Shown here: positions 14,728 to 31,605 of the stretch, piece after piece | How the letters are laid out: every line of letters starts with the position of its first letter | How positions within the stretch are numbered: position 1 is the stretch's first letter | NCBI GenBank assembly: GCA_903831865.1 | Contig: CAIKZH010000014.1 | Span: 1 to 59,071 of the forward strand | Direction of reading: 5' to 3' | Length of the DNA stretch: 59,071 nucleotides | Source of the DNA: an uncultured Coriobacteriia bacterium | Lineage (GTDB): Bacteria > Actinomycetota > Coriobacteriia > Anaerosomatales > PALSA-660 | Translations under genes and position numbers: made by a program | The notes under the pieces: generated by a model | What the model saw: the letters and a program-made list of their open reading frames with translations, nothing else | Told to the model about the DNA's origin: nothing | Database searches by the model: none

Positions 14728-14849
14728 CGCGCTTCCGGCCCTGCGTGCGACGTGGGGCGATGCTGTCGCAGCTCCACTGATTGCGCGATACTTCCCCGCG
14801 GGCGTGTGGTGACGCCACGGCCGATGCTTCGAACGAGGAGTGCTGTGAC

Positions 14850-18022: not shown

Positions 18023-18055
18023 TTGCACTAGTCCATGCGCATATGCGAATATACT
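18023..18055 (+). promoter_or_regulatory. Candidate promoter/operator upstream of the first arsR-family gene
   Basis: An AT-rich island, unusual for this window, contains TTGCAC (18023-18028), the 10-bp perfect palindrome CGCATATGCG (18038-18047) and TATACT (18050-18055). The 21-nt hexamer spacing is not ideal. Confidence 0.3.
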
Positions 18056-18091
18056 TGCGACGAGGGGGATACGCCCCACGGGAGGTGCCCG

Positions 18092-18409: not shown

Positions 18410-18438
18410 GCTCGGTAGCGACAAGGAGGAAGAAGCCA

Positions 18439-18975: not shown

Positions 18976-19016
18976 CCGTCGGACGGCGCCGCCGCCCACC
19001 ACCCGAGAGAGAGGCT

Positions 19017-19262
19017 TTGACGATGAGCGACACGAAACCCGATCTGGAGCTCGACCTGCGCGGTCTGCTGTGCCCGATGCCGATGGTCAAGGTGTCACAG
19101 AACATCAGCAAGGTGCCCGTCGGCGGCACGGTGCGAGCCGTCGCGACCGACGCGGGCTCCATGGCCGATATCCCCGCGTGGGCGAAGTCGACCGGCAACG
19201 AGGTCGTGCAGGCGGAGAAGGTCGGCAGCGAGTACGTGTTCCTCGTCAAGCGTGTGAAGTAG
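19017..19262 (+). CDS. tusA: TusA/SirA-family sulfur carrier protein
   Basis: LDLRGLLCPMPMVKV carries the conserved CP-x-P cysteine motif. The size is about 80 aa. Confidence 0.85.
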   Translation: MTMSDTKPDLELDLRGLLCPMPMVKVSQNISKVPVGGTVRAVATDAGSMADIPAWAKSTGNEVVQAEKVGSEYVFLVKRVK

Positions 19263-19272
19263 AGGACGGGAC

Positions 19273-19995
19273 ATGGACCTGTTCTCCTTCCTGGTCTCCG
19301 GGATCGGCGTCTACGTGGCGCTTGTCGTGTTCACCCTGGGCATGGCGTGGCGCGTATGGCAGTGGATGCGGACGCCGAAGTCGCCCGTCCGCCTCGGCCT
19401 CTTCCCCAAGCCGAAGAGCGGGCTGGGGAGGTTCGGCAAGCTGCTGAAAGACACCTTCATCGCCCCGCAATCGGTCGAGCAGGCCGCGCCTCTCATGGCG
19501 GCCGCCTACGCGTTCCATCTCGCGGCGCTCGGCGCCTTCGTCGGGCACCTGCGTCTCGTCCACGAGTTCACGCCGCTCGTGAGCATCCTCGGTGTGGAAG
19601 GCATGAACACGTTCGCCGCCTGGTCGGGCGGGATCGCGGGCGTGGTCATGCTCCTGGCGATCCTCTTCTGGATCGGACGGCGCACCTCCGGGGCCTACAA
19701 GAACCTCTCGACGCCGGAGGACTTCCTACTGCTTGGGCTGCTCCTTGGCGTCGTGCTGCTCGGTGACCATCTGCGGTTCGTGGGGGGACTCCACGCGGCG
19801 ACCTACGAGGCATGGTTCGCGAGCCTGGTGGCGTTGCGGCCTGCGTTCCCGCCGGCGCTCGCGGCCTCGGCCACGAGATGGGCGCTCGACTGGCACATGC
19901 TGTTCGTGGACGCGTTCCTGATCTACTTCCCGTTCAGCAAGCTCACCCACGCGATCGGCGCGTTCACGGGCAACCTCGTGCGGAGCTCTGACTGA
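19273..19995 (+). CDS. NarI/DsrM/HdrE-like membrane di-heme cytochrome b subunit
   Basis: About 5-6 TM helices with conserved His (FHLAALGAFVGHLRLV, LGDHLRF, FSKLTHAIG), as in the nitrate reductase gamma-like family. Its stop is 1 nt before the next start. Confidence 0.75.
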   Translation: MDLFSFLVSGIGVYVALVVFTLGMAWRVWQWMRTPKSPVRLGLFPKPKSGLGRFGKLLKDTFIAPQSVEQAAPLMAAAYAFHLAALGAFVGHLRLVHEFTPLVSILGVEGMNTFAAWSGGIAGVVMLLAILFWIGRRTSGAYKNLSTPEDFLLLGLLLGVVLLGDHLRFVGGLHAATYEAWFASLVALRPAFPPALAASATRWALDWHMLFVDAFLIYFPFSKLTHAIGAFTGNLVRSSD

Positions 19996-19996
19996 T

Positions 19997-21310
19997 ATGG
20001 AGAAGCAGGAGTTGGAAACCATCATCGGCACCCTCGGCAAGAGGATGAACCGGCAGCTCAAGGAGTACCTGGACGTCTGCGTGCGCTGCGCGATCTGCAA
20101 GGACGCGTGCCACCAGTACGTGGCCACCCAGGACATGACCTACCTGCCGGCTCACCGGGCGGAGCTGGTGCGCGCGGTCTATCGCAAGTACTTCACGAAG
20201 GCGGGCCAGTTCATGCCGGCGGTCTACGAGGCCCGCGACCCCGACGAGCACCTGCTCGACGACCTCTACAGGTCGACCTACGCCTGCACGGGCTGTCGCC
20301 GGTGCATGTACTACTGCCCGTTCTCGATCGACACGCAGTGGGTGATCTCCGCGGCGAAGGCCATGCTCATCGCAGCTGGTCGCGGCAACGAGATGCTCGG
20401 CCAGCTCGCGGACGCGGCTCTGTTCAAGGGCGACAACATCGAGATGTTCCGAGACAACCTGGTCGAGGGCTTCCGGGAGATCGAGACCCAGGTGCGGGAC
20501 ATCACGAAGAACCCGGAGGCTGAGATCCCGGTGGACCGCCAGGGCGCCGACATGCTGTACGTCGCGCTCGCTGGTTCGCATTCGATCCTGCCGGCGGCGA
20601 TCATCTTCAACGAGGCGAAGGCGAGCTGGACGCTCTCCATGTTCGAGGCGGCCAACTACGGCTTCTTCTTCGGGGACCCCGACAAGGCCAGGCTCATCGC
20701 CAAGCGCTTCATGGACGAAGCCAAACGCCTCGGCGTGAAGGAGGTCGTGATCACCGAGTGCGGCCACGCCTACCGCGTCGCTGAGCTGTTCTACGAGGCA
20801 TGGGCGAAGGAGAGGATGCCGTTCAAGGTCGTGCATATCCTCGAAGTCATCGATCGCTACGTGAAGGAAGGGCGCATCAAGGTCGACCCACGCGGCATCA
20901 GGGAGAAGGTCACCTACCACGACCCCTGCCAGATCGGCCGCAACGGCGGCATCTACGAGCAGCCGCGGGACATCGTGAAGGCCATCGCTCCGGACTTCGT
21001 CGACATGACGCCCAATCGCGAGAAGCAGTGGTGCTGCGGCGGTGGCGGTGGGATCGTCGCGATGGAGGAGTTCAACGAGGTGCGCCTCAAGAGCGGCGAC
21101 ATGAAAGTCGAGCAGATCAAGGCCACAGGCGCGAGCGTGCTCGCGTGCCCGTGCGAGAACTGTCGCCTGCAGATAGGCGAGCTCAACGAGGTCCACGACC
21201 TCGGATTGCGAGTGGTTCCGGTCATGGACCTTGTGGTCGAGGCGATGGGCTTCGGGCACGCGGCCGGCACCACCGGCGACGAGCGCGACGCCGCCGAGGC
21301 GGTCGTCTGA
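19997..21310 (+). CDS. HdrD/DsrK-like Fe-S oxidoreductase (2x[4Fe-4S] plus CCG domains)
   Basis: CVRCAICKDAC and CTGCRRCMYYCP cluster motifs. CCG-domain pattern YHDPC...WCCGGGGG...CPCENC. Confidence 0.85.
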   Translation: MEKQELETIIGTLGKRMNRQLKEYLDVCVRCAICKDACHQYVATQDMTYLPAHRAELVRAVYRKYFTKAGQFMPAVYEARDPDEHLLDDLYRSTYACTGCRRCMYYCPFSIDTQWVISAAKAMLIAAGRGNEMLGQLADAALFKGDNIEMFRDNLVEGFREIETQVRDITKNPEAEIPVDRQGADMLYVALAGSHSILPAAIIFNEAKASWTLSMFEAANYGFFFGDPDKARLIAKRFMDEAKRLGVKEVVITECGHAYRVAELFYEAWAKERMPFKVVHILEVIDRYVKEGRIKVDPRGIREKVTYHDPCQIGRNGGIYEQPRDIVKAIAPDFVDMTPNREKQWCCGGGGGIVAMEEFNEVRLKSGDMKVEQIKATGASVLACPCENCRLQIGELNEVHDLGLRVVPVMDLVVEAMGFGHAAGTTGDERDAAEAVV

Positions 21311-21880: not shown

Positions 21881-22123
21881 ATGGTCATCAAGGTGCTCGG
21901 ATCGGGATGCGCGAACTGTCAGAAGCTTGAGGCCCTGGCGGCAAAGGTGGTGTCTGACCTTGGCCTCGACGCCGACGTCGTCAAGGTCACCGACATCGGC
22001 CAGATCATGGCGTACGGCGTGATGTCGACTCCGGCTCTCGTGATCGACGAGGAGCTCAAGGTCGCTGGCCGTGTCCCGACCTACGACGAGGTCGTTGCAC
22101 TGCTGCAGCGGTCCGCCCACTAG
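21881..22123 (+). CDS. Small thioredoxin-fold protein (redox-active disulfide protein 2 / Thioredoxin_3-like)
   Basis: MVIKVLGSGCANCQKLE... has a CxxC directly after beta1. About 80 aa. This type is typically found beside PF03773-type permeases. Confidence 0.85.
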   Translation: MVIKVLGSGCANCQKLEALAAKVVSDLGLDADVVKVTDIGQIMAYGVMSTPALVIDEELKVAGRVPTYDEVVALLQRSAH

Positions 22124-22151
22124 CAGTCAGGTCGCCGACTGGAGGCGTTCG

Positions 22152-23129
22152 ATGGACCCGTTCTACCCCCTGCAGCTGCTCGCGAACTGGATCACCTACA
22201 ACGTGCTCGGGCTTTCTGCGACGAGCAAGCTCGGTGCTTCGCTGGACTTCTTCCTCTTCGACGTGCCGAAGGTGCTGATCCTCCTCGCCGTCGTGATCTT
22301 CTTCGTCGCAGTCATCCGGTCGTTCTTCCCCCCGGAGAAGACGAAGAAGCTCCTGTCGCACTCCCGGCTCTACGGGGGCAACATCGCGGCGGCGCTGCTT
22401 GGCATCGTGACGCCGTTCTGCTCCTGCTCCGCCGTCCCTCTCTTCATCGGTTTCGTCGAGAGCGGCGTACCCCTGGGCGTGACGTTCTCATTCCTTGTGG
22501 CCAGTCCGATGATCAACGAGGTGGCGGTGATCCTGCTGCTCGGGCTGTTCGGGTGGCAGATCGCCGCACTCTACGTGGTCTCCGGTCTCCTGATCGCGAT
22601 CACGAGCGGGATCATCATCGGGAAGCTCGGGCTCGAGAGCTGGGTCGAGGACTACGTCTACGAGATCCGCATGGGCGAGGCGGGCAAGCTGCCCGAACAG
22701 ACGTGGCGAGAGCGCCTCGCCTACGCTTTGGGCTACGTGAAGGAGATCGTCGGCAAGGTGTGGCCGTATGTCGTGGTCGGCATCGGCATCGGCGCCGTCA
22801 TGCACGGCTACGTGCCGAACGACTTCCTCGTGAAGTACGCGGGTCCGGGAAACCCCTTGGCTGTGCCGCTGGCGGTGCTCATCGGCGTGCCGCTGTACAG
22901 CAATGCGGCCGGGGTCGTGCCGATCGTGGGCGTGCTGATCGCGAAGGGCGTCTCCGTGGGCACGGCGCTCGCCTTCATGATGGCCGTGGTCGGTCTGTCC
23001 CTTCCCGAGGCGATCATCCTTCGCAAGGTGCTCAAGCCCAAGCTCATCGCCCTGTACTTCGGGATCAACGCGGTCGGCATCGTCGCGATCGGCTACCTGT
23101 TCAACCTGGTCATCCCGCTCGCGAGATAG
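22152..23129 (+). CDS. PF03773-type (ArsP/YraQ-like) permease
   Basis: ATG 22152 lies after GGAGG. Polytopic protein with the TPFCSCSAVPLFIGF motif characteristic of this permease family. Confidence 0.8.
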   Translation: MDPFYPLQLLANWITYNVLGLSATSKLGASLDFFLFDVPKVLILLAVVIFFVAVIRSFFPPEKTKKLLSHSRLYGGNIAAALLGIVTPFCSCSAVPLFIGFVESGVPLGVTFSFLVASPMINEVAVILLLGLFGWQIAALYVVSGLLIAITSGIIIGKLGLESWVEDYVYEIRMGEAGKLPEQTWRERLAYALGYVKEIVGKVWPYVVVGIGIGAVMHGYVPNDFLVKYAGPGNPLAVPLAVLIGVPLYSNAAGVVPIVGVLIAKGVSVGTALAFMMAVVGLSLPEAIILRKVLKPKLIALYFGINAVGIVAIGYLFNLVIPLAR

Positions 23130-23143
23130 GACGGTCGAAGGAG

Positions 23144-23626
23144 ATGCAGGTGTCGGATTGGATCATGGTGGGCCTCGGCGTCGCGGCGCTCGGGCTGTCG
23201 TTTGCCAAGGATCGCGGCAAGACCCGTACGGCCGTGCGCGTAGGGCTCAAGCAGTTCGTGGCGATGCTGCCGTTCTTCATCGCGGTGTTCGGTGTCATCG
23301 GCCTGCTCGAGGTGCTGCTCGCCCCTCATCAGGTGCAGTCGTTACTCGGCCCGCAGCAAGGAGTGCTTGCGCCTATCTACGCGGCCCTGTTCGGGGGGCT
23401 TGCAACGGGCCCGCCTGCAGCGGTGTTCCCGCTCGGGAGGTACTTGCTCGGCCAACACGCGAGCATCGCGGCGGTCGCGACCCTGCTGATCGCCTGGGTG
23501 GCCGTGGGGACCGTGTCGCTGCCCGCAGAGGTGCGCTTCTTCGGAGCCAGATTCGCGATCTCACGCTGGGCGCTCACGATGATCGTTTCCGTGGCACTTG
23601 GACTCCTGATGGGGTGGATCCTGTGA
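23144..23626 (+). CDS. Small integral membrane protein, permease-like (paralog A)
   Basis: ATG 23144 lies after GAAGGAG. About 160 aa and 4-5 TM. It shares the pattern G.P..VFPL...LL......A.......W......P.E.R.FG..F with the next gene. Confidence 0.6.
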   Translation: MQVSDWIMVGLGVAALGLSFAKDRGKTRTAVRVGLKQFVAMLPFFIAVFGVIGLLEVLLAPHQVQSLLGPQQGVLAPIYAALFGGLATGPPAAVFPLGRYLLGQHASIAAVATLLIAWVAVGTVSLPAEVRFFGARFAISRWALTMIVSVALGLLMGWIL

Positions 23627-24228
23627 AGCAGCTGATCAAGTGGTCCAGGGCCAACTGGCTCGTGTGGGTGATCGTCATCGCCTATCTCTTGCTGGCAGTG
23701 ACCCGAACACACGTGGCGTCGACGGCTGCGCTCGTCGCGCTGACGACGTTCCGGGATCTCATCGTGACGCTCGTGGTGGTGTTCCTCATCGTCGGGCTGT
23801 TCCAGGTGTGGGTCAGCGAGGACTTCATCGTCCGGCATCTCGGCCAGGATTCGGGGCTCAAGGGGCTGGCGCTCGGCGCGGGGATCGGCACCGTCATCCA
23901 CGGACCGCTCGTGGGCGTGTTCCCGCTGCTCAAGACGCTGCTTGGAAAGGGAGCTCGACTGGGCGTGGTCATCGCCATCGTGTCGACCTGGGCGATCAAG
24001 CTGCCTATGATCCCGCTGGAGATCCGGCTGTTCGGCTGGAAGTTCACGCTTCTGCGCGAGGGTCTGCTGTTCGCATCGGCGTTCATCATGGCGCCTGTGA
24101 TGGAGCTCGCGCTGGGCAAGGACTGGGCACTTCCGAAGGCGGTGGACGCCGTCGAGCCTCTCGCCACTGCCCCCGCCGCGACGGTGCAGTGCACCGAGCC
24201 GCCTGAAGCCGCCGGGGACTGCGCGTGA
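23623..24228 (+). CDS. Small integral membrane protein, permease-like (paralog B)
   Basis: GTG 23623 overlaps the upstream stop (GTGA). About 200 aa. HGPLVGVFPLLKTLLGKGARLGVVIAIVSTWAIKLPMIPLEIRLFGWKF is paralogous to the preceding protein. Confidence 0.6.
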   Translation: MKQLIKWSRANWLVWVIVIAYLLLAVTRTHVASTAALVALTTFRDLIVTLVVVFLIVGLFQVWVSEDFIVRHLGQDSGLKGLALGAGIGTVIHGPLVGVFPLLKTLLGKGARLGVVIAIVSTWAIKLPMIPLEIRLFGWKFTLLREGLLFASAFIMAPVMELALGKDWALPKAVDAVEPLATAPAATVQCTEPPEAAGDCA

Positions 24229-24299
24229 CACCGCCGGCGGCTCGTGGGGCCGGCAAGGAAGAGGAGAACACCGAGCGGCAGGAGAGGACGGGCACGGCC

Positions 24300-24674
24300 A
24301 TGCGGATCAAGGTGATCGAGGGCGGCTGCGGTTGAGGGGGGCCGGTCGTCCCGAGCGGTCCGCTCGGGTCTGCGTCCGAGGGATCGGGCGAGTCGCTTGC
24401 CGACCGTCTGCGGCGATACCTGCACGGTCGCTTCGGGGACGGATTCTCCGTGGAAGCCTCGGACCTGACCTCGCTTTCGCCGGAGGATCGCGGGCCCGTT
24501 CTCGATGCCGTCTGCGAAGGCGCTGAGTTCCCGATGGTGCTTGTCGAGGGCCGGCTCGTTTGCACAGAAGGCACTGACGCCGTCCGCGTAATGGAGGCGG
24601 TCGATCTCGCCCTGGGCCAGCAGCGAGAGGCGTGGTGTCACCCGCAACCGACCACCTGCGCACCGGAAGACTGA
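24300..24674 (+). CDS. ArsD/thioredoxin-fold protein with an in-frame UGA (candidate selenocysteine at codon 12). The conservative alternative is CDS 24450..24674
   Basis: ATG 24300 opens MRIKVIEGGCG, followed by TGA at 24333-24335. The same frame stays open into track ORF 24450..24674. A hairpin sits 14 nt after the TGA. The distal part (FSVEASDLTSLSPEDRGPVLDAVCEGAEFPMVLVEGRLVCTEG) has an ArsD/Trx-like layout. Confidence 0.5.
24350..24368 (+). promoter_or_regulatory. SECIS-like RNA hairpin
   Basis: CCCGAGCG (24350-24357) pairs perfectly with CGCUCGGG (24361-24368). The apical loop is GUC, or GGUCC if the closing pair opens. The loop G is 23 nt after the UGA. Confidence 0.45.
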
Positions 24675-24766
24675 CCGCTCGGCGGGCGATGTCGCCCACT
24701 AGCTGCATCTCGCATATAGTGTTGGCAGCATCTACGTGCGGTCGTCATCTCGAGGAGACCTCCACC

Positions 24767-25195
24767 ATGGTTCCAGAAGAGCAGGAGACGTGCTGCCGAG
24801 GCGCCGGCGCCATGCACGGACCGGAGCGCCCATGCTGCCGCCGCGCGGGAGGCGGTGGCGGCGGCGCCCTGGTCGAGCCCGCGGCCCTCGCCGCGCTGCT
24901 CAATCGCGGTGCGCACGGCTACGACGTGCGTCGTGCGATCAGTGAACTGACCGGTGGCGAGCTGGAGGTCGACGCCGGGGGGTTGTACCGAGTGCTGAGG
25001 CGCCTCGAGGCCGAGGGCTTCGTCGTGTCGGCTTGGAGCGAGGGAGATTCCGGCCCGCAGCGCAGGGACTACGAGATCACGTCTGAAGGCAGGGAGCTCG
25101 CGGAGGACTGGCTCTCGCACTTGCGGGAGCGGCAGCGAGTGGCGGGCCTGCTGGCGGATGTCCTGTCCGCGGCCCTCGCGCCGAGCAAGGTCTAG
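24767..25195 (+). CDS. PadR-family transcriptional regulator with Cys/Gly-rich N-terminal extension
   Basis: ATG 24767 lies after GAGGAG. The HGYDVRRAISELTGGELEVDAGGLYRVLRRLEAEGFV winged helix is preceded by ETCCRGAGAMHGPERPCCRRAGGGGGG. Confidence 0.85.
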   Translation: MVPEEQETCCRGAGAMHGPERPCCRRAGGGGGGALVEPAALAALLNRGAHGYDVRRAISELTGGELEVDAGGLYRVLRRLEAEGFVVSAWSEGDSGPQRRDYEITSEGRELAEDWLSHLRERQRVAGLLADVLSAALAPSKV

Positions 25196-25216
25196 GACTC
25201 GAGAGGAGAAGACACG

Positions 25217-25270
25217 ATGCCCAGATATAACGGAACGGGTCCCAGTCTCGGGCGCGGGTGCGCGAGATGA
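25217..25270 (+). CDS. 17-codon mini-ORF (MPRYNGTGPSLGRGCAR), translationally coupled to the NifX-like gene
   Basis: ATG 25217 lies 6 nt after GAGAGGAGAAG. Its TGA (25268-25270) overlaps the ATG at 25267 of the next gene as ATGA. The N-terminal MPR-x-N-G-TGP pattern resembles (from memory) DUF5320 small proteins. Confidence 0.35.
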   Translation: MPRYNGTGPSLGRGCAR

Positions 25271-25629
25271 CGATCGCAGTGTCCTCGCTCGGGCCGACAC
25301 TCGACGATCGGGTGGACGAGAGGTTTGGCCGCGCCGCCTACCTGCTGATCGTCGACGAGGGCACGCTTGATGTCCACGCGGTCGACAACAGCGCGAATCG
25401 AGATGCGCTGCAGGGGTCGGGTCTCGGCGCGGCCGAGATCACGAGCGAACACGGAGCCACCGCCGTGATCACCGGCCACCTCGGCCCAAAGGCTTTCAGC
25501 GCCCTGCAGCGCTGCGGCATCAGCGGCTACGACGGCACCGGGATGACGGTGCGCGAGGCCGTGGAGAAACAGAGAACGGGCCAGCTCGTCCGGCTTGCCG
25601 AAGGCGAGTCACACGCTGGTATGGACTGA
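25267..25629 (+). CDS. NifX/NifB-C-terminal-like (dinitrogenase FeMo-cofactor-binding domain family) protein 1
   Basis: MTIAVSS...RFGRAAYLLIVD...AVITGHLGPKAFSALQRCGISGY fits the Nitro_FeMo-Co domain pattern. The track ORF begins at GTG 25258. Confidence 0.8.
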   Translation: MTIAVSSLGPTLDDRVDERFGRAAYLLIVDEGTLDVHAVDNSANRDALQGSGLGAAEITSEHGATAVITGHLGPKAFSALQRCGISGYDGTGMTVREAVEKQRTGQLVRLAEGESHAGMD

Positions 25630-25655
25630 CCGGAGCAGCAAGGCGATGGGAGCCA

Positions 25656-26036
25656 ATGATGCCTGACAGCATGGTGCTGGCGGTGCCCTCGATGGGCGAA
25701 GGCGGACTCGAAGCGGAGCGGTCGGCGCACTTCGGTCACTGCGACTGTTTCACGCTCGTCGACGTGGCCGATGGTGAGATCGGGGCGGTACGGGTCGTGG
25801 CGAATCCTCCGCACGAGGAAGGTGGGTGTTTGCGGCCGGTCAACCTGCTCGCGTCACATGGCGTGAACGCCCTGATCGCCGCCGGGATGGGCGCGCGGCC
25901 CCTGGCCGGATTCAACGACGCCGGCATCACGGTCTACTTCGAGACCGAGACGCCGGGCATCGGCGACGCGGTGCGGCGTGTGCTCGCCGGCTCCGTGGAG
26001 AAGATGGACGCCCGGCACGTCTGCGGCGGCCACTAG
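25656..26036 (+). CDS. NifX/NifB-C-terminal-like protein 2
   Basis: MVLAVPS...HFGHCDCFTLVDV...GVNALIAAGMGARPLAGFNDAGITVY follows the same domain pattern. Confidence 0.8.
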   Translation: MMPDSMVLAVPSMGEGGLEAERSAHFGHCDCFTLVDVADGEIGAVRVVANPPHEEGGCLRPVNLLASHGVNALIAAGMGARPLAGFNDAGITVYFETETPGIGDAVRRVLAGSVEKMDARHVCGGH

Positions 26037-26038
26037 GC

Positions 26039-26956
26039 GTGTCCGCCGAGTCGCAGAAGGGCGACGGCTCGCCCTTCACGTTGGCCGTCGCCTCGGGCAA
26101 GGGCGGCACCGGCAAGACGCTCGTGGCAACCAACATGGCCGCCTTGTCGTCAGCGGCCGGTCTGAGGGTCGTGCTCGTCGACTGCGACGTGGAGGCGCCC
26201 AACGACCACCTGTTCCTGCGCCGGGCCGAGGAGTCGGCATCGGCCGTAGACGTGCTCGTCGCCGACGTTGACGCGTCGCAGTGCGTCGCGTGCGGTGCGT
26301 GCCGGGACGCGTGCGCGTTCGGCGCGATACGCATCCTCGGCGACTCGGCGGTGGTCTTCGACGACCTGTGCCACGGATGCGGGCTCTGCACCGACGTGTG
26401 CCCGTCCGGCGTGATCACCGAGGTGCCCCGACGGGTGGGCGAGGTCGTCACGGGACTCACGGCAGAAGCGGGCGCGCTCATGCTCGTGACGGGCAGGCTC
26501 GACGTCGGGCAGGTGAAGTCCCCTTCGGTGATCCGGGCCACTCGGGCCGCGGCTGCCGCCTGTGCTGCCGACCTCGTGGTACTCGACGCCCCACCGGGCG
26601 TCGCCTGTTCTGCGGTCGCCGCGGTGCGCGGTGCCGACGCGCTGCTGCTGGTCGCCGAGCCGACGGTCTTCGGGCTCCACGACCTGGAACTCAGTCTTCG
26701 ATTGGGCGGCGAGCTACGGCTGCCGATGGGCGTCGTCGTCAATCGGTCGCCGGCGACAGGTGGCGAGGCGGTCGACCAGCTGTGCGAGAGGCGGGGCGTC
26801 CCGGTGCTCGCGCACATCCCCTTCGACAGGCGCATCGCCGAGACCTACGCACGCGGGGAGCTGGTCGCGCACGCCTTGCCCGATGTCGGTGCGCTGATCG
26901 CATCGCTTCCTGGCGCCATGCGCCTGGCGGCTTCGCCGTCGGCGGCGCCGCGATGA
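26039..26956 (+). CDS. MinD/ParA-superfamily P-loop ATPase with inserted 2x[4Fe-4S] ferredoxin domain (COG1149-type), copy 1
   Basis: GTG 26039 lies 2 nt after the upstream stop. Walker A ASGKGGTGKT. CVACGACRDAC and CHGCGLCTDVCP are inserted after the P-loop. Confidence 0.85.
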   Translation: MSAESQKGDGSPFTLAVASGKGGTGKTLVATNMAALSSAAGLRVVLVDCDVEAPNDHLFLRRAEESASAVDVLVADVDASQCVACGACRDACAFGAIRILGDSAVVFDDLCHGCGLCTDVCPSGVITEVPRRVGEVVTGLTAEAGALMLVTGRLDVGQVKSPSVIRATRAAAAACAADLVVLDAPPGVACSAVAAVRGADALLLVAEPTVFGLHDLELSLRLGGELRLPMGVVVNRSPATGGEAVDQLCERRGVPVLAHIPFDRRIAETYARGELVAHALPDVGALIASLPGAMRLAASPSAAPR

Positions 26957-27885
26957 AGAGCATCGTCGTCGCGTCAGGCAAGGGTGGCACGGGCAAGACC
27001 ACCGTCTCCGCCCTGTTCGCACGTCTGGCTTCGGAGCGCACGAAGGTCGTTGTCGTCGATGCGGACGTGGAGGCGTCGAACCTGCCGCTGGCCCTGCGCG
27101 CGACCGACGCGACATGCGCAGCCTTTGCGGGGGGCGCACGCGCGGCGATCGACGCCGCGAGATGCACGGGGTGCCGGATGTGCATGCAGGTGTGCCGCTT
27201 CCAGGCGATCTCCCCCGGCACCGAGTGCGTGTGCGTCGTGGACCGGTTCGCGTGCGAGGGTTGCGGGAGCTGCGCCACATGGTGTCCGAACGGCGCAGTG
27301 CGGATGGCACCGTCCACCGCGGGTGAGGCGTGCCTCGGCAGCGGCGCGACCGGCCCGATCGCGTACGGTCGGCTCGAGCCCGGCGAGGACCTCTCCGGCC
27401 GCCTCGTCACCGAGGTCAGACGTCTTGGGGCGGAGGAGGCAGAGCGGCAAGGCGCCGACATGCTGCTGATAGACGGACCTCCGGGGATAGGGTGTCCGCT
27501 CATCGCGGCGGTCGCGAGCACCGACCTGGTCGTCGCGGTCGCCGAGCCTTCCGTCTCGGGCGCCCATGACCTGGGCCGGCTGGCCGGCGTGGCCACGCGG
27601 CTCGGACTCCCCATGCGCGTCATGCTCAACAAGGCCGACCTCTCCTCGGTCGGGGCATCGCAGGTGCGCGATCTGTGCGCGTCGAGGGGCCTCCCGCTGC
27701 TCGTGGAGGTGCCGTTCGACACGGCCATCGCTGATGTGAACAGCGCGGGCGCCGCGGAGGCGCCGGCCTTGGCCGCAGAAGCCGGCCCGGGCGTGCGGGC
27801 AGTGAGGTCGGCGTGGCAAGCGCTGGAGCGAGAACTGGGTCTTGAGGAATGGGCCGCTGGAGTCCAACAGCAGCCGATCGAGTAG
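26953..27885 (+). CDS. MinD/ParA-superfamily P-loop ATPase with inserted ferredoxin domain, copy 2
   Basis: ATG 26953 overlaps the upstream stop (ATGA). ASGKGGTGKT; CTGCRMCMQVC and CEGCGSCATWCP. Confidence 0.85.
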   Translation: MKSIVVASGKGGTGKTTVSALFARLASERTKVVVVDADVEASNLPLALRATDATCAAFAGGARAAIDAARCTGCRMCMQVCRFQAISPGTECVCVVDRFACEGCGSCATWCPNGAVRMAPSTAGEACLGSGATGPIAYGRLEPGEDLSGRLVTEVRRLGAEEAERQGADMLLIDGPPGIGCPLIAAVASTDLVVAVAEPSVSGAHDLGRLAGVATRLGLPMRVMLNKADLSSVGASQVRDLCASRGLPLLVEVPFDTAIADVNSAGAAEAPALAAEAGPGVRAVRSAWQALERELGLEEWAAGVQQQPIE

Positions 27886-27898
27886 GAAGAGGCACGCC

Positions 27899-28645
27899 AT
27901 GCACATCATCGCGGTCATGAGCGGGAAGGGCGGCGTGGGCAAGTCCTTCGTCGCCACGGGGCTTGCGGCGGCTTTGCAGCGCCGCACGGGCCGCACGGCC
28001 GTGCTCGACGCGGACATCACCGGGGCGTCGGTCCCGCACATGCTCGGCGTGCCCAAGAGCGGGCGCGTCGATGCGGAGGGCAGGCTTCTTCCCGGAATGA
28101 GCCCCGACGGCATACGGGTGTCGTCGATGAGCCTGATGCTGCCTGCTGACGAAGAGACACTCATCTGGCGCGGCCCGCTGATCTCCAAGGCGATAGACGA
28201 GTTGTTCACCCTGACCGATTGGGGCGACGCCGAGTACCTCGTGGTGGACATGCCCCCGGGAACCTCGGACGCCGCGCTCACTGTGTTGGACAAGCTCAAG
28301 CCGGAGGGTGTCGTGATCGTGACGACTCCGCAGGACATGGTCACGAAGATCGCCCACCGTTCTCATCACATGGTGCGGGAGATGGGCGGCAACGTGATCG
28401 GGCTCGTAATGAACATGGCGTTCGTCCGTTGTCCCAAGTGCGGCGAGCAGATCGACACCTTCGGGTCCGTTCGAAGCGATGCGGACGCAGAGCTTCCTGT
28501 CCTGGCGACACTCCCTCTCGTCATGGAGTGGGCGGCGCTCGCCGACAGCGGCCAGGCGGCGAAGATCGCCACCGACGAGTTCGACGCTCTTGCGGAAGCG
28601 GTGCTTGCCGGTCTCAAGGTCGCGGGGACGGCATCCGCGAGCTAG
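27899..28645 (+). CDS. Mrp/NBP35/ApbC-family Fe-S cluster carrier ATPase
   Basis: ATG 27899 lies after GGAAGAGG. Deviant Walker A SGKGGVGKS, DMPPGTSD switch, CPKCG (CxxC) motif. Confidence 0.85.
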   Translation: MHIIAVMSGKGGVGKSFVATGLAAALQRRTGRTAVLDADITGASVPHMLGVPKSGRVDAEGRLLPGMSPDGIRVSSMSLMLPADEETLIWRGPLISKAIDELFTLTDWGDAEYLVVDMPPGTSDAALTVLDKLKPEGVVIVTTPQDMVTKIAHRSHHMVREMGGNVIGLVMNMAFVRCPKCGEQIDTFGSVRSDADAELPVLATLPLVMEWAALADSGQAAKIATDEFDALAEAVLAGLKVAGTASAS

Positions 28646-28683
28646 CCTGGAGCGATCAGCCGGAAAGCACGAACGGAGCTCCC

Positions 28684-30123
28684 GTGACCACGGATACCAC
28701 ACGCTACCCAGCTGCGCTCGACGCCTTCCTCTCGGCATCGAGTGCCTACAGGGCCACGGCTGCGATCGACGCCCTACGCGCGCAGGACTACTCGCGTCTC
28801 GATCGTGCCGGACACGTCTACCTCGACTACACGGGCTCGGGTCTCTACGCCGAGTCGCAGCTTCGGCGGCATCAGGCGTTGCTCACTGACGGAGTCTTCG
28901 GGAATCCGCACTCGAAGAACCCGACGTCGCTCGCGAGCACGGCCATGGTCGAGGCTGCGCGCGCCGCGGTGCTCGAGTTCTTCCGGGCGTCCGCCGACGA
29001 GTACGAGGTGATCTTCACCGCCAACGCCAGCGCCGCGCTCAAGCTCGTGGGCGAGTCGTACACGTTCGCCGCGGGCTCAAGGTTCCTGCTGACCTACGAC
29101 AACCACAACTCGGTCAACGGGATCCGGGAGTTCGCACGAGCGAGGGGCGCGACCGTGACGTACCTGCCTGTGGGTGCGTCGGCACTGCGCGTGGACCCCG
29201 AGATGGTGCGCGCGGAACTCGCAAGTCCCCTGTCAGGCGCCTCCAACCTGTTCGCATACCCGGCTCAGTCGAACTTCTCGGGGGTGCAGCACCCGCTTGC
29301 GTGGATCGACGAAGCGCACGAGCGTGGATGGGATGTCATCCTCGACGCTGCAGCGTTCGCGCCCACGAACCGCCTCGATCTGTCCGTCGTGAAGCCCGAC
29401 TTCGTTCCCCTGTCCTTCTACAAGATGTTCGGGTACCCCACCGGGGTCGGGGCGCTCCTGGCACGGCGCAGTGCGCTGGCCAAGCTCGCGCGTCCCTGGT
29501 TCGCGGGCGGGACGATCACGATCGCATCCGTTCAGGGCGAGGGCTGGCATCGACTGGCACCGGGCGCCCCCGGCTTCGAGGACGGGACGGCTGACTTCCT
29601 CGGCCTGCCGGCCGTCACTATCGGGCTCGAGCACCTGAGCGCCGTGGGGATCGACGTCGTTCATGAGCGCGTCACCGCACTCGCGGGCTGGCTCCTCGAG
29701 CGGGCGCGCGACCTGACCCATGGGAACGGCGCGCCCATGGTCCGCGTCTTTGGCCCGCAGGACATGACTGCGCGCGGGGCGACCATCGCGTTCCACCTGC
29801 TTGATCCCGCAGGAGAGACGTTCGACGTTCATCGCATGGAGTTGCTCGCCGGCGAGCGGGGGATATCTCTTCGAACCGGGTGCTTCTGCAACCCCGGAGA
29901 CGGGGTGGTCGCCCATCGGATCACAGCCGACGACATGGCGGCGTGCTTCGTCGAGCAGCGCGCGGTCACCTTCGAGGAGTGCGACGCGCTGATCCGCACG
30001 GCCACCGGGAAGATGCCCAACACCATGCGTGTGTCGTTGGGGCTCGTCTCGGACTTCGCGGATGTCTTTCGGTTCGTCGAGTTCGTCGAGCGATACAGAG
30101 ACGTCAGCGCTCGCGAGATCTGA
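28684..30123 (+). CDS. Class V PLP-dependent enzyme of the molybdenum-cofactor-sulfurase (MOCOS N-terminal, NifS-like) type
   Basis: YLDYTGSGLYAESQL...GNPHS...IFTANASAALKLVGE, PLP-Lys context SFYKMFGYPTGVGALL, active-site Cys context RTGCFCNPG. No MOSC domain follows. Confidence 0.8.
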   Translation: MTTDTTRYPAALDAFLSASSAYRATAAIDALRAQDYSRLDRAGHVYLDYTGSGLYAESQLRRHQALLTDGVFGNPHSKNPTSLASTAMVEAARAAVLEFFRASADEYEVIFTANASAALKLVGESYTFAAGSRFLLTYDNHNSVNGIREFARARGATVTYLPVGASALRVDPEMVRAELASPLSGASNLFAYPAQSNFSGVQHPLAWIDEAHERGWDVILDAAAFAPTNRLDLSVVKPDFVPLSFYKMFGYPTGVGALLARRSALAKLARPWFAGGTITIASVQGEGWHRLAPGAPGFEDGTADFLGLPAVTIGLEHLSAVGIDVVHERVTALAGWLLERARDLTHGNGAPMVRVFGPQDMTARGATIAFHLLDPAGETFDVHRMELLAGERGISLRTGCFCNPGDGVVAHRITADDMAACFVEQRAVTFEECDALIRTATGKMPNTMRVSLGLVSDFADVFRFVEFVERYRDVSAREI

Positions 30124-30549
30124 CGCGTCCGCACGCTGGCCGCGGGCCGCGTCCTTCCGAGCCGGTTCATGCGAGCAGAAGGACGGGCGGGACGGCTCAC
30201 GGCCGACATCGTCGTGGAAGAGGGCAAGCGCCTGCGCCATCAGCCGCACGGGGAGGGAACGTGCAGATCGACTGGAACCAGGCATGGAAGGACGCACGGC
30301 AGGGCAGGGGTCCGGGTCACGAGAGGGACAAGGCCTGCTGAGACAAGCGGGCGCCATCGTTTGCGAAGCACTTGGCAGCGATGCGTGGAGGACGGCGTCA
30401 CGAACGTCACTCCCGTGCAGCTCGGCTGGGCGCTCTCATCGCGGCATGTCGCGCGATGGGCCGTCATGTCGCGGAGCGTCCCGAGTGGCCACGTCGTGAC
30501 CTGGGAGCCGGCGCTTCCCGGGGCTGCGGAGGCAGTCACCGGACCCGCG

Positions 30550-30915
30550 TCAGTACCGCAGGAAGTTCTCGCACTCCAGCATCGACTGGACGACCTGGCC
30601 GGCGCCGCCGATGAAGCACCCATCCAGCAGCTGGTCTTCGGCGATGCCGCGAGTCGTCATGCAGGGCGAGCACACCATGATGCGATGACCGGCCGCCAGC
30701 ACTGCCGCCATCAGGTCTGCGACCGGGGCCAGCCCGTCGGCGGCAGCCGCCTCGGCCCCGCCGGGCAGGGCGAGTCGTACGCCCTCGCCTTGAAGGATCA
30801 GCACCGGCTCCACGTCCATCGCCATGGCTCCGTTGGCCAGCATGAAGGGGATGGTCGCCAGTTCGGGATCGTCCTGCGCATGTGTGACCACGAAGCCCAC
30901 CTTCTTGCGAGTCAC
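30550..30915 (-). CDS. DsrE/DsrF-family (COG2044-like) small sulfur-relay/redox protein
   Basis: GTG 30915 lies 6 nt after AAAGGAG. KVGFVVTHAQDDPELATIPFMLANGAMAMD...IMVCSPCM fits the DsrE-like fold pattern. Confidence 0.7.
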   Translation of the reverse strand: MTRKKVGFVVTHAQDDPELATIPFMLANGAMAMDVEPVLILQGEGVRLALPGGAEAAAADGLAPVADLMAAVLAAGHRIMVCSPCMTTRGIAEDQLLDGCFIGGAGQVVQSMLECENFLRY

Positions 30916-31092
30916 GAGGGGCTCCTTTCTGCGCTGTCGGCGCGGGTCAAGCACGGCTCGAAAGGAAAGCCCCCGGGGCGGTGCACCGTTCCGGGGGCAG
31001 GGCACGCGGAAGAGGGGGGTGCTCCGCATGCACCCAGTCAGTACCCAACTCTCGCGCGTCTTCTCGTCGGAATCACGAGTGTCACTCGGCCT

Positions 31093-31605
31093 TCACGACC
31101 CCGCGACCGGGCTGGGGCCTTCCTGCGCCCTGAGGAGTCCCAGGACGGCGTCCAGCTTCCCGGAGTCGCCATCGGTCAGCAGCGTCAGTATCCTGTCGAG
31201 CTTCTCGTCCTCGATCCTCGAGAGCTGACGCTGCACGTTCTCGATGTCCGTCTTCGAGTCGACATTGGTCTTGAAGTCCGCATTCGCCTGGAAGCGGTCG
31301 CGCTCGGCGGACCGGTTCTGACTCATCATGATGATCGGCGCCGCGTAGGCGGCCTGCGTGGAGAAGAGCAGGTTGAGCAGGATGAACGGATACGGGTCCC
31401 ACCGGTGCGAGACCACCTCGACGACGTTCAGGATCATCCAGGCCACCACGAAGAGCGACTGCACGATGATGAACGTCCAGGAGCCCATGCCGGTGGCGAC
31501 CGCGTCGGCCACCCGCTGCCCGATGGTCATGTGGTCCCGGTGCGCGGCGCTCCAGTCCTTGTCGTGATGCCACGTTTCCACCTGGACTGACTTCTTCTTT
31601 GGCAT
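31093..31605 (-). CDS. DUF1003-family membrane protein
   Basis: ATG 31605 lies after GGAGGAG. GSWTFIIVQSLFVVAWMILN...WDPYPFILLNLLFSTQAAYAAPIIMMSQNR is the typical DUF1003 core. Confidence 0.75.
   Translation of the reverse strand: MPKKKSVQVETWHHDKDWSAAHRDHMTIGQRVADAVATGMGSWTFIIVQSLFVVAWMILNVVEVVSHRWDPYPFILLNLLFSTQAAYAAPIIMMSQNRSAERDRFQANADFKTNVDSKTDIENVQRQLSRIEDEKLDRILTLLTDGDSGKLDAVLGLLRAQEGPSPVAGS

What the first reader, a model, noticed from the sequence alone, without database searches (positions are those of the whole stretch)
24767..30123. Uncharacterised metallocluster-type module: PadR, mini-ORF, 2x NifX-like, 2x MinD-type ATPase with ferredoxin inserts, Mrp/NBP35 and a MOCOS-type desulfurase-like PLP enzyme
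Seen in sequence:
- Eight co-directional reading frames are packed with 2-60 nt gaps or ATGA/GTGA overlaps (25267, 26039, 26953).
- Two proteins have the NifX/NifB-C-terminal cofactor-binding fold.
- Two SIMIBI P-loop ATPases each carry two CxxCxxC(xxx)C ferredoxin motifs inserted after the Walker A.
- One Mrp/NBP35 scaffold carries CPKCG.
- One NifS-like enzyme has the MOCOS-type RTGCFCNPG active-site context but no MOSC domain.
Established knowledge:
- NifX-like domains bind FeMo-co-type precursors.
- Mrp/NBP35 proteins carry transient Fe-S clusters.
- Class V PLP enzymes generate persulfide sulfur.
- As far as I know, the COG1149-type MinD-ferredoxin fusions have no assigned function, although they recur beside NifX-like genes in anaerobes that do not fix nitrogen.
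Inference: the locus encodes a sulfur donor, ATP-driven Fe-S scaffolds and cofactor carriers. No nitrogenase, hydrogenase or CODH client is in the window. This fits a self-contained assembly or trafficking system for an unknown complex metallocluster or metal(loid)-sulfur species, under PadR and upstream ArsR control.
Basis: partly seen in the sequence, partly recalled or inferred. Interest (0 to 1): 0.85.

Follow-up and report, generated by a model that had tools for sequence, protein, structure and literature searches.

The report
Actinobacterial orange-protein (ORP) type operon
This is an actinobacterial version of the already described but functionally unsolved "orange protein" (ORP) iron-sulfur/ATPase gene cluster of anaerobes, here run by a different regulator and with a Moco-sulfurase-like sulfur enzyme attached only in its closest relatives.

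Summary
The sequence features are real. Pfam confirms PadR, two Nitro_FeMo-Co proteins, two MinD-type ATPases each with two 4Fe-4S motifs, an Mrp/NBP35 protein and a class V PLP enzyme.

The module is not an uncharacterised kind. It is the orp (orange protein complex) cluster known from Desulfovibrio.
- NifX-like 1 best matches the D. gigas orange protein structure 2WFB (E 8e-25).
- NifX-like 2 and the Mrp best match the two halves of MrpORP.
- The ATPase pair corresponds to Orp3/Orp4.

Across 80 species-level loci the core is strongly syntenic: NifX-like upstream in 59/67, a second ATPase in 50/51, Mrp in 28/51 and DUF5320 in 51/80.

The class V enzyme is MOCOS-type: 37% identity and an identical IRTGCFCNPG motif against a full-length Aminotran_5+MOSC protein. 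It lies beside MinD-ferredoxin genes in 0/80 loci. Its orthologues at 65-79% identity sit in unrelated contexts. Only three close lineages share the adjacency.

The mini-ORF is an in-frame deletion remnant of a 68-aa DUF5320 gene. ArsR control is unsupported and no client enzyme recurs.

Lineage-specific features are a PadR with a conserved Cys-Cys dyad, a split MrpORP and a recurrent MoaE-like neighbour.

Verdict: new variant of a known kind, moderate-to-low interest.

The parts
24700..24740 (+). Conserved promoter/operator block upstream of padR. It has a -10-like TATAGT at 24715-24720 and three half-sites of the CTACA / TGTAG-N7-CTACA type.
   Evidence: Alignment of the padR upstream regions of the window, L005, L095, L092, L093 and L094. 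In the window each half-site carries one mismatch: CTAGC, TGTTG and CTACG. The sigma-70 scan found nothing by its own criteria.
24767..25195 (+). PadR-family regulator with an N-terminal extension that carries Cys-Cys dyads (ETCC...RPCCRR) and a Gly-rich linker.
   Evidence: Pfam PF03551, 64 bits. The R-P/R-C-C dyad is conserved in 9 of 11 aligned sequences (the window plus 8 homologues); L019 keeps one Cys and L018 none. A PadR gene lies directly upstream of the NifX-like genes in L005/L006, L012-L019 and L092-L095.
25217..25270 (+). Mini-ORF of 17 aa. It is the remnant of a DUF5320 gene after an in-frame internal deletion of about 51 codons. Its stop overlaps the next start (ATGA).
   Evidence: The orthologous slot holds a 68-aa protein in L095 and L005. 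The window ORF matches its first 10 and last 7 residues. The L095 protein hits PF17253 at 31.7 bits, and L093 carries a precomputed PF17253 hit.
25267..25629 (+). Orange-protein (Orp8)-like single-domain Nitro_FeMo-Co protein. It has no conserved cysteine.
   Evidence: PF02579, 67 bits. The best solved structure is 2WFB, D. gigas ORP: E 8.1e-25, 90 bits over 109 residues, about 47% identity by my count. Its single Cys is conserved in 0 of 67 homologues.
25656..26036 (+). Second Nitro_FeMo-Co protein. It resembles the C-terminal Di-Nase domain of MrpORP, with SAHFGHCDC, NPPH and HVCGGH motifs.
   Evidence: PF02579, 71 bits. NCBIfam MrpORP model positions 275-363, 55 bits. C29, C58 and C123 are conserved in 11 of 11 close homologues. 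The motifs compare with CXHFGHCE, TPPPH and CDH in PMC6345978.
26039..26956 (+). MinD-type deviant-Walker-A ATPase with an inserted 2x[4Fe-4S] ferredoxin domain (Orp3/Orp4-like), paralogue 1.
   Evidence: Pfam CbiA/ParA plus Fer4. All 8 ferredoxin Cys and C190 (in PPGxxC) are present in 80 of 80 homologues; C49 is present in 76 of 80. The AlphaFold model has pLDDT 90.8, and its nearest solved folds are MinD, FleN, HypB and NifH.
26953..27885 (+). MinD-type ATPase with an inserted 2x[4Fe-4S] ferredoxin domain, paralogue 2.
   Evidence: Pfam. It is 38% identical to paralogue 1. All 8 ferredoxin Cys and C181 are present in 73 of 73 homologues. A second paralogue lies within 4.5 kb in 50 of 51 loci.
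27899..28645 (+). Stand-alone Mrp/NBP35 P-loop protein with GKGGVGKS and CPKCG. It has no Di-Nase domain and no N-terminal Cys extension.
   Evidence: PF10609, 242 bits. The best NCBIfam family is MrpORP at 228.6 bits, below the 450 cut-off and matching model positions 6-237 only; ApbC scores 164. An Mrp gene is present in 28 of 51 loci.
28684..30123 (+). MOCOS-type class V PLP cysteine-desulfurase-like enzyme without a MOSC domain. It is a lineage-specific addition to the cluster.
   Evidence: PF00266, 131 bits, and nothing else. It is 37% identical over 468 aa, E 8e-91, to P0357, which has Aminotran_5+MOSC_N+MOSC, with identical IRTGCFCNPG and SFYKMFGYPTG motifs. SufS structures score only about 85 bits. 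It is adjacent to the cluster only in the window, L005/L006 and L095.

Best explanation
The region is an orp-type (orange protein complex) operon of an uncultured, probably anaerobic member of the Actinomycetota.

Proposed working, by homology with the Desulfovibrio system:
- The two paralogous MinD-type ATPases each hold two [4Fe-4S] clusters in their ferredoxin insert. They form an ATP-dependent (hetero)dimer.
- That dimer associates with the small orange-protein-like subunit, which holds a metal-sulfide species non-covalently.
- The Mrp dimer assembles a bridging [4Fe-4S] cluster on its CxxC motif and loads the ATPases.
- The second Nitro_FeMo-Co protein is the detached counterpart of the MrpORP C-terminal domain. 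It probably binds its own Fe-S cluster through three conserved Cys plus His.
- PadR replaces the sigma-54 activator OrpR. It probably represses from the conserved TGTAG-N7-CTACA operator that overlaps the -10 element. Its conserved Cys-Cys dyad is a candidate redox or metal sensor.
- In this sub-lineage only, a MOCOS-type desulfurase gene was added 38 nt downstream of mrp. It probably supplies persulfide sulfur to the operon's own Fe-S (or metal-sulfide) loading step.

Status of each step:
- Shown here: the families, the synteny and the distribution of each gene.
- Shown in Desulfovibrio (literature): the complex, the MrpORP-to-Orp3/4 cluster transfer and expression only at low redox potential.
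- Inferred: every biochemical step in this organism, the PadR sensing and the role of the desulfurase.

The end function of ORP complexes is still unknown.
For: - Family hits for all seven proteins.
- NifX-like 1 matches the D. gigas orange protein 2WFB at E 8e-25.
- MrpORP is the best NCBIfam family for both the Mrp (228.6 bits) and NifX-like 2 (55 bits, C-terminal domain).
- The two ATPases are 38% identical to each other, comparable with Orp3/Orp4 in the literature.
- Synteny over 80 species of many phyla: NifX-like upstream in 59/67, a second ATPase in 50/51, Mrp in 28/51 and DUF5320 in 51/80.
- Absolute conservation of the 8 ferredoxin Cys plus one extra Cys after Walker B in both paralogues.
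- A conserved padR promoter/operator block and a conserved PadR Cys-Cys dyad.
- Tight junctions and no internal terminator.
- Literature: Orp3-Orp4-Orp8 co-purify, and MrpORP transfers Fe-S to them in vitro (PMC6345978). The orp operons are expressed only at low redox potential, and the role is 'still unclear' (PMC8359166).
Against: - No Desulfovibrio Orp3, Orp4 or Orp9 sequence could be compared directly. The link rests on 2WFB, the NCBIfam MrpORP model and published descriptions.
- MrpORP is split here and scores below its curated cut-off.
- The regulator is of a different family.
- The DUF5320 partner, present in 51/80 loci, is destroyed in this genome, and the operator half-sites are each mismatched. 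The operon may therefore be regulated or composed atypically.
- The desulfurase adjacency is young and narrow, so its functional coupling is only an inference from a conserved 37-38 nt spacing in three lineages.
Confidence: 0.72

Rival explanations
1. The eight genes form a self-contained, dedicated assembly or trafficking line for an unknown complex metallocluster or metal(loid)-sulfur species. The line runs from sulfur donor to scaffold ATPases to carriers, under PadR and ArsR control.
For: - All the component families are ones used in cluster assembly.
- The class V enzyme is separated from mrp by the same 37-38 nt in the window, L005 and L095.
- Sulfur-relay genes (TusA, DsrE2, DsrE, DsrM/K-like) and a MoaE-like gene co-localise with the cluster, in different orders, in the window, L005 and L092.
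Against: - There is no class V gene near the ATPases in 80 species.
- Orthologues of the class V gene at 65-79% identity lie in unrelated neighbourhoods.
- ArsR belongs to a separate operon whose position relative to the cluster varies.
- No client enzyme recurs in the 80 loci.
- One component, the mini-ORF, is a deletion remnant.
Confidence: 0.15
2. The class V gene is functionally unrelated to the cluster. It would be a housekeeping MOCOS-like sulfurase or selenocysteine lyase, for example for xanthine-dehydrogenase-family molybdoenzymes or for S/Se handling, that happens to lie downstream in one genus-level clade.
For: - The protein is highly conserved (65% identity or more in over 100 clusters) across Coriobacteriia, Anaerosomatales, Acidimicrobiales and others.
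- Its neighbourhoods vary in the loci examined.
- JGI names many homologues 'molybdenum cofactor sulfurtransferase'.
- Relatives are fused to TPMT-like or UbiE-like methyltransferases, an MFS transporter or a MOSC domain, never to Orp-type domains.
Against: - It has the same orientation, a 38 nt gap and no terminator between it and mrp.
- The adjacency and the spacing persist in three lineages whose ATPase is only 78-80% identical to the window's.
Confidence: 0.35
3. The module is an IssA-like iron-sulfur storage system, holding thioferrate-type material, rather than an ORP-type complex.
For: - IssA carries the same IPR003731/Nitro_FeMo-Co domain and binds an anionic Fe-S polymer with a cationic Gly/aromatic-rich tail (PMC5524996).
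- DUF5320 proteins next to these clusters are Gly/Arg/aromatic-rich.
Against: - Neither NifX-like protein here has a cationic tail.
- The DUF5320 gene is internally deleted in this genome.
- NifX-like 1 is far closer to the orange protein than to MTH1175-type proteins: 90 against 53 bits.
Confidence: 0.05

Closest known systems
ORP (orange protein) complex and orp operons of Desulfovibrio vulgaris Hildenborough, DVU2103-DVU2109 (Fievet 2011; PMC6345978; PMC8359166)
   Same: - An orange-protein-type single-domain Nitro_FeMo-Co protein.
- Two paralogous MinD-type ATPases, each with two 4Fe-4S ferredoxin motifs.
- An Mrp/NBP35 P-loop protein with CxxC.
- A Di-Nase domain with an HFGHC motif.
- The same gene neighbourhood, found in many anaerobes.
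   Different: - One co-directional operon instead of two divergent ones.
- A PadR regulator with a Cys-Cys dyad instead of the sigma-54 activator OrpR.
- MrpORP split into two genes, with no N-terminal Cys motif.
- The small DUF5320-type partner reduced to a 17-aa remnant.
- A MOCOS-type desulfurase appended.
- The host is a high-GC actinobacterium, not a sulfate reducer.
MOCOS / ABA3 molybdenum cofactor sulfurase, NifS-like domain
   Same: It aligns end to end (37% identity, E 8e-91) with the N-terminal domain of a protein that has Aminotran_5+MOSC_N+MOSC. The catalytic-Cys context IRTGCFCNPG and the PLP-Lys context SFYKMFGYPTG are identical.
   Different: It has no MOSC_N or MOSC Moco-binding domain, so any acceptor must be a separate protein. 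No xanthine-dehydrogenase-family gene is in the window.
SufS / CsdA type II cysteine desulfurases
   Same: It has the class V fold. The PLP lysine and the catalytic cysteine align with SufS.
   Different: It scores only about 85 bits against SufS structures and 127.6 bits against the SufS NCBIfam model, whose cut-off is 475. No SufE, SufU or SufBCD genes are adjacent.
NifX / NafY / NifB-C FeMo-co carriers and IssA
   Same: They share the Nitro_FeMo-Co (IPR003731) domain.
   Different: There are no nif genes in the window or in the 80 loci. There is no radical-SAM fusion and no cationic IssA tail.

Membership tests
ORP (orange protein) complex / orp gene cluster | Single-domain Nitro_FeMo-Co protein orthologous to the orange protein (Orp8), binding its cluster without Cys ligands | tested here: met
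   The best solved structure is 2WFB (D. gigas ORP) at E 8.1e-25 over the full length. The next hit, MTH1175, is at 2.6e-13. No conserved Cys: 0 of 67 homologues.
ORP (orange protein) complex / orp gene cluster | Two paralogous MinD-type ATPases, each with two [4Fe-4S] ferredoxin motifs (Orp3/Orp4) | tested here: met
   Pfam CbiA/ParA plus Fer4 in both proteins. They are 38% identical to each other. All 8 Cys are invariant in 80 and 73 homologues respectively. The description of Orp3/Orp4 comes from PMC6345978. No direct sequence comparison with DVU2103 or DVU2104 was possible.
ORP (orange protein) complex / orp gene cluster | MrpORP: an Mrp/NBP35 P-loop domain fused to a Di-Nase domain | tested here: not met
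   The Mrp is 248 aa with the P-loop domain only. It scores 228.6 bits against NF041136, whose cut-off is 450. The Di-Nase-like domain is a separate gene, NifX-like 2, at 55 bits on model positions 275-363. The two halves are present but not fused.
ORP (orange protein) complex / orp gene cluster | Sigma-54 promoters and the cognate activator OrpR | tested here: not met
   The regulator here is a PadR. Sigma-54 activator genes occur in 19 of the 80 related loci, and PadR genes in 11 of the 60 with enough upstream sequence.
ORP (orange protein) complex / orp gene cluster | Physical complex of the Orp proteins, and a Mo-Cu-S cluster on the orange protein | not testable with these tools
   This needs pull-downs and metal analysis.
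MOCOS / Moco sulfurase | NifS-like class V domain with the PLP lysine and a catalytic Cys in the GCFCNPG context | tested here: met
   BLASTP against P0357 (Aminotran_5+MOSC_N+MOSC): 37% identity over 468 aa, E 8e-91, with identical motifs.
MOCOS / Moco sulfurase | C-terminal MOSC_N plus MOSC Moco-binding domain | tested here: not met
   The protein is 479 aa and carries PF00266 only.
SufS / IscS / NifS cysteine desulfurases (NCBIfam equivalogs) | Score above the curated family cut-off | tested here: not met
   SufS subfamily 127.6 against 475; IscS 48 against 548; NifS 43 against 531.
Nitrogenase cofactor carriers (NifX / NafY) | Nitro_FeMo-Co domain in a nif gene context | tested here: not met
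   The domain is present. The window holds no nif genes, and none is among the recurrent neighbour families of the 80 loci.
DUF5320 (PF17253), for the mini-ORF | N-terminal MPRGDGTGP...G-GP-M-[ST]-G-x-G-R-G-x-C core | tested here: not met
   The mini-ORF keeps only MPRYNGTGP and the last 7 residues. The GxGPMSGxGRGxC core is deleted. The full-length orthologue in L095 hits PF17253 at 31.7 bits. At 17 aa the mini-ORF is too short for the scan tool.
IssA thioferrate storage protein | Nitro_FeMo-Co domain followed by a cationic Gly/aromatic-rich tail | tested here: not met
   Both NifX-like proteins end within about 15 residues of the domain and have no such tail. The definition is from PMC5524996.

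The most novel reading that the evidence does not exclude
In this actinobacterial lineage the ORP module may handle a molybdenum (or tungsten) sulfide species rather than only Fe-S clusters.

Three observations point this way:
- The orange-protein-like subunit belongs to the only family known to carry a [S2MoS2CuS2MoS2] cluster.
- A divergent MoaE-like gene sits directly beside the PadR-orp cluster in four lineages (L013, L092, L093, L094) and within 7 kb in two more (the window and L005).
- The closest relatives have recruited a Moco-sulfurase-type desulfurase that lacks its own Moco-binding domain.

The NifX-like proteins would then act as the detached acceptor or carrier for sulfuration. 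That would give the long-debated Mo-S cluster of the orange protein a physiological meaning.
Probability: 0.1. Interest if true: 0.7.

Novelty: new variant of a known kind. Interest (0 to 1): 0.33.

Why it matters
ORP-type clusters are very widespread in anaerobes. After 15 years their cellular role is still called unclear.

This variant adds comparative handles that could be tested:
- a PadR-type regulator with a conserved Cys-Cys dyad and a recognisable operator, in place of the Fe-S sensing activator OrpR;
- a naturally split MrpORP;
- an invariant extra cysteine after Walker B in both ATPase paralogues;
- DUF5320 as a frequent partner (51/80 loci);
- lineage-specific links to a MoaE-like protein, a MOCOS-type desulfurase and TusA/DsrE2 sulfur-relay genes.

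None of this changes what kind of system it is. The window by itself does not reveal the function.

Tried and rejected
- **Fievet 2011 (PMC3133258).** This is the primary description of orp conservation. It is not held, so Orp5 and Orp7 could not be matched to genes here.
- **Literature on DUF5320, COG1149 and 'inserted ferredoxin domain'.** The search returned only unrelated uses of the terms. Two other 'orange protein' hits were a gel stain and a bare citation.
- **Sigma-70 promoter scan of 24000-31200.** It found nothing. The promoter/operator was found only by aligning upstream regions. An inverted-repeat search in the window missed it because the half-sites are mismatched.
- **Fold search with the confident ATPase model.** It returned only generic MinD, FleN, HypB, BchL and NifH folds. 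No solved structure includes the ferredoxin insert, so no extra mechanistic detail came from it.
- **PDB sequence search with the MoaE-like protein.** No hit. NCBIfam gave only a 20-bit match to molybdopterin synthase.
- **Candidate selenoprotein upstream.** There is no Pfam family and no Rfam SECIS match. The hairpin is no more stable than shuffled sequence, z = -0.59. The homologue search found only two truncated gene calls.
- **Rejected: an arsenic or metalloid detoxification island.** The ArsR and ArsP_1 names are generic family labels. There is no ArsA, ArsB, ArsC or ArsD hit, and those genes accompany only 2-3 of the 39 related loci with full flanks.
- **Rejected: a nitrogenase-like or CODH maturation context.** No such genes were found in the window or among the recurrent neighbour families of the 80 loci.

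Full report
**1. Observation**

The window is high-GC, 64-72% per 2-kb block. Reading the ORFs and junctions gives eight co-directional frames on the + strand:
- PadR, 24767-25195
- a 17-codon mini-ORF, 25217-25270, with a good Shine-Dalgarno
- two NifX-like genes, 25267-25629 and 25656-26036
- two MinD-type ATPase genes, 26039-26956 and 26953-27885
- an Mrp gene, 27899-28645
- a class V PLP enzyme gene, 28684-30123 (GTG start)

The gaps are 21, 26, 2, 13 and 38 nt, and there are two ATGA overlaps. The site at 26039 is a GTG start 2 nt after a TAG stop, not an overlap.

No terminator-like site lies on the + strand inside the cluster.

**2. What it is**

NCBIfam gave the decisive lead. The best family for the Mrp is MrpORP, the 'iron-sulfur cluster carrier protein MrpORP'. 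It scores 228.6 bits on model positions 6-237, against 164 bits for ApbC. The second NifX-like protein matches the C-terminal domain of the same model, positions 275-363, at 55 bits.

[quoted passage not shown] The published picture is as follows:
- Orp3 and Orp4 are paralogous ATPases, each with two [4Fe-4S] ferredoxin motifs.
- Orp8 is the orange protein, a single Di-Nase (Nitro_FeMo-Co) domain that carries a non-covalent Mo-Cu-S cluster.
- Orp9 is an Mrp domain fused to a Di-Nase domain.
- Orp3, Orp4 and Orp8 co-purify.
- MrpORP transfers Fe-S clusters to them in vitro (PMC6345978).
- The operons are switched on only at low redox potential by the sigma-54 activator OrpR, and the role of the proteins is 'still unclear' (PMC8359166).

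The window matches this picture gene for gene:
- NifX-like 1 best matches the D. gigas orange protein structure 2WFB. E is 8.1e-25 over the whole length, about 47% identity by my count of the match line. The next hit, MTH1175, is at 2.6e-13.
- The two ATPases are 38% identical to each other.
- NifX-like 2 carries SAHFGHCDC, NPPH and a C-terminal HVCGGH. These resemble the CXHFGHCE, TPPPH and CDH motifs described for the MrpORP Di-Nase domain. Its three cysteines are conserved in 11 of 11 close homologues.

The module is therefore an orp-type cluster with MrpORP split into two genes.

**3. Conservation of the core**

An alignment of 24 ATPase homologues (A1) retrieved 80 loci, one per species. 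They come from Actinomycetota, Planctomycetota, Bacillota, Acidobacteriota, Syntrophia, Chloroflexota, Bathyarchaeia and others. I scored all their ORFs with the window's proteins:

| Feature near the ATPase | Loci with the feature |
|---|---|
| NifX-like gene just upstream | 59 of 67 with enough flank |
| Second MinD-ferredoxin gene within 4.5 kb | 50 of 51 |
| Second gene directly adjacent | 49 of 71 |
| Mrp | 28 of 51 |
| PadR | 11 of 60 |
| DUF5320-like gene, same strand | 51 of 80 |

Other recurrent neighbour families were identified by clustering. Pfam was run on representatives of some of them.

| Neighbour family | Loci | How named |
|---|---|---|
| ARMT1-like (DUF89) | 31 | Pfam |
| Radical SAM | 24 | Pfam |
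| Sigma-54 activator | 19 | read from the representative sequence |
| Methyltransferase | 17 | read from the representative sequence |
| FmdB-type zinc ribbon | 14 | read from the representative sequence |
| DUF134 | 11 | Pfam |

No nitrogenase, CODH, hydrogenase or other single client enzyme recurs.

In both ATPase paralogues the eight ferredoxin cysteines are invariant. So is one further cysteine just after Walker B, in the motif PPGxxC: C190 in 80 of 80 homologues and C181 in 73 of 73. That residue is a candidate inter-subunit ligand. This is an inference.

The AlphaFold model of ATPase 1 is confident, pLDDT 90.8. It matches only generic MinD, FleN, HypB, BchL and NifH folds. No solved structure includes the ferredoxin insert.

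**4. The class V enzyme**

It is MOCOS-type. An exhaustive search of 1.84 billion representative proteins found 1452 relatives at E of 1e-30 or better. One of them, P0357, has the full Aminotran_5+MOSC_N+MOSC architecture. It aligns end to end with the window protein at 37% identity, E 8e-91, with identical IRTGCFCNPG and SFYKMFGYPTG motifs. SufS structures score only about 85 bits.

It is not a conserved member of the module:
- No class V gene of any type lies within 10 kb of the ATPase in the 80 loci.
- Orthologues at 65-79% identity sit in unrelated, mutually different neighbourhoods. This holds for L001, L002/L003, L004, L007 and L009.
- The adjacency exists in the window, in L005/L006 (class V 87% identical, ATPase 80%) and in L095 (ATPase 78%). 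The gap after mrp is the same 37-38 nt in all three.
- L092 (ATPase 74%) has Mrp but no class V gene. L093 and L094 (68-69%) have neither.

The desulfurase is a recent addition in one narrow clade. Relatives elsewhere are fused to TPMT-like or UbiE-like methyltransferases, an MFS transporter, PIG-L or phosphatase domains.

**5. The mini-ORF**

The same slot between padR and the first NifX-like gene holds a longer gene in the relatives. In L095 and L005 it encodes a 68-aa protein. L013, L017, L019, L093 and L094 carry similar ones. The L095 protein hits DUF5320 (PF17253) at 31.7 bits.

The window's 17 residues equal the first 10 and the last 7 residues of that protein. At the DNA level the junction lies between two GGTCYC repeats. 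The mini-ORF is therefore an in-frame deletion remnant that has lost the conserved GxGPMSGxGRGxC core. It keeps the ATGA coupling to the next gene.

**6. Regulation**

The PadR homologues of this clade share an N-terminal extension with an R-P/R-C-C dyad, conserved in 9 of 11 aligned sequences, followed by a glycine-rich linker.

Aligning the upstream regions of six lineages reveals a conserved block. It has a -10-like TATAGT overlapped by half-sites of the form CTACA ... TGTAG-N7-CTACA. In the window (24700-24740) each half-site has one mismatch.

An autoregulated PadR operon is the simplest reading. Sensing through the cysteines is an inference. It is attractive because OrpR senses redox potential through an Fe-S cluster.

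The ArsR gene (18035-18409) heads a separate operon encoding DsrE2, TusA and DsrM/DsrK-like proteins. In L005 and L092 that operon lies downstream of the cluster. Nothing supports ArsR control of the cluster.

**7. Wider context**

A divergent MoaE-like gene (PF02391, 41 bits) lies directly beside padR in L013, L092, L093 and L094. It lies within 7 kb in the window (17517-17894) and in L005.

Four modules co-localise in the window and L092, in different orders: the MoaE-like gene, the ArsR-DsrE2-TusA-DsrM/K-like operon, the thioredoxin-like/ArsP_1 permease pair and the orp-type cluster. L005 also has three of them; only a permease fragment is seen in its near-identical contig L006. Among the 39 broadly sampled loci with full flanks these partners are rare, 0-3 loci each.

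This suggests a lineage-specific link to sulfur relay and perhaps to molybdenum chemistry. That is the basis of the low-probability novel reading.

**8. Verdict**

The finding is real, and its family calls are right. It belongs to a described kind, the ORP system, whose end function remains open.

What is new here:
- a PadR-regulated actinobacterial variant with a split MrpORP;
- a decayed DUF5320 partner;
- a clade-restricted MOCOS-type desulfurase.

Interest is moderate to low.

Noticed in passing
window 24300-24674 (+), in-frame TGA at 24333-24335: Candidate small selenoprotein directly upstream of padR. The ORF reads MRIKVIEGGCG-TGA-GGPVVPSGPLGSAS...FPMVLVEGRLV. The in-frame TGA, the flanking codons and a CCGAGCG-GTC-CGCTCGG hairpin about 20 nt downstream are conserved in L005 and L095. 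The layout resembles a thioredoxin-fold protein with a C-x-U or C-U motif. There is no Pfam family, no Rfam SECIS match and no significant fold stability. Gene callers start after the TGA.
   Followed up: partly
window 17517-17894 (-); L013 5311-5700; L092 7805-8182; L093 8107-8469; L094 1927-2325; L005 8642-9019: A small divergent MoaE-like gene (PF02391, 41 bits) recurs directly beside, or within 7 kb of, the PadR-orp cluster in six actinobacterial lineages. It accompanies only 1 of 39 broadly sampled loci. It has no PDB sequence match.
   Followed up: partly
window 18035-21310 (+): An ArsR - DsrE2 (PF13686) - TusA - DsrM-like (NarI family) - DsrK-like (CCG domain; NCBIfam DsrK 300 bits, below its cut-off) operon. 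The same five genes lie near the orp-type cluster in L005 and L092, on the other side of it.
   Followed up: partly
window 24700-24740 (+): A promoter/operator block conserved across six lineages upstream of padR, with TATAGT and CTACA/TGTAG-N7-CTACA half-sites. In the window every half-site has one mismatch to the consensus.
   Followed up: partly
window 26606-26608 (C190 of ATPase 1) and 27493-27495 (C181 of ATPase 2): One extra cysteine, in the motif PPGxxC just after Walker B, is invariant in both MinD-ferredoxin paralogues across all 80 and 73 homologues. ATPase 1 also keeps C49 in 76 of 80 and C249 in 75 of 80. It may be an inter-subunit metal or cluster ligand.
   Followed up: no
window 41056-41134 (+): A c-di-GMP-I riboswitch aptamer (Rfam RF01051, 59.8 bits, E 3e-9). 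It overlaps the 5' part of the long ORF that carries a subtilase (Peptidase_S8) domain, so that gene probably starts downstream of it.
   Followed up: no
P0243, P0316, P0320, P0246 (relatives of the class V enzyme): Stand-alone MOCOS-type class V domains are fused in other organisms to TPMT-like or UbiE-like methyltransferases, an MFS transporter, or PIG-L plus cNMP-binding domains. The methyltransferase fusions hint at sulfur or selenium methylation chemistry for part of this family.
   Followed up: no
L020-L091 (for example L023 9268-9928, L072 2146-3548, L065 7906-8472): DUF5320 proteins next to orp-type clusters come in several forms. Some have Gly/Arg/aromatic-rich tails reminiscent of the IssA tail. 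Some have a C-terminal CxCxxC...CxxC ribbon. Some are fused to DUF134. [quoted passage not shown] This was not tested.
   Followed up: no
window 12783-17474 (+): A copper-type cluster lies just upstream of the MoaE-like gene: two cupredoxin-like proteins, one fused to DsbD_2, and a P-type ATPase with two HMA domains.
   Followed up: no
window 21881-24228 (+): An MTH895/ArsE-family thioredoxin-like protein, a full ArsP_1 permease and two half-size ArsP_1-like membrane proteins precede the selenoprotein candidate. The last half-permease is also found upstream of the same gene in L095 and L006.
   Followed up: no
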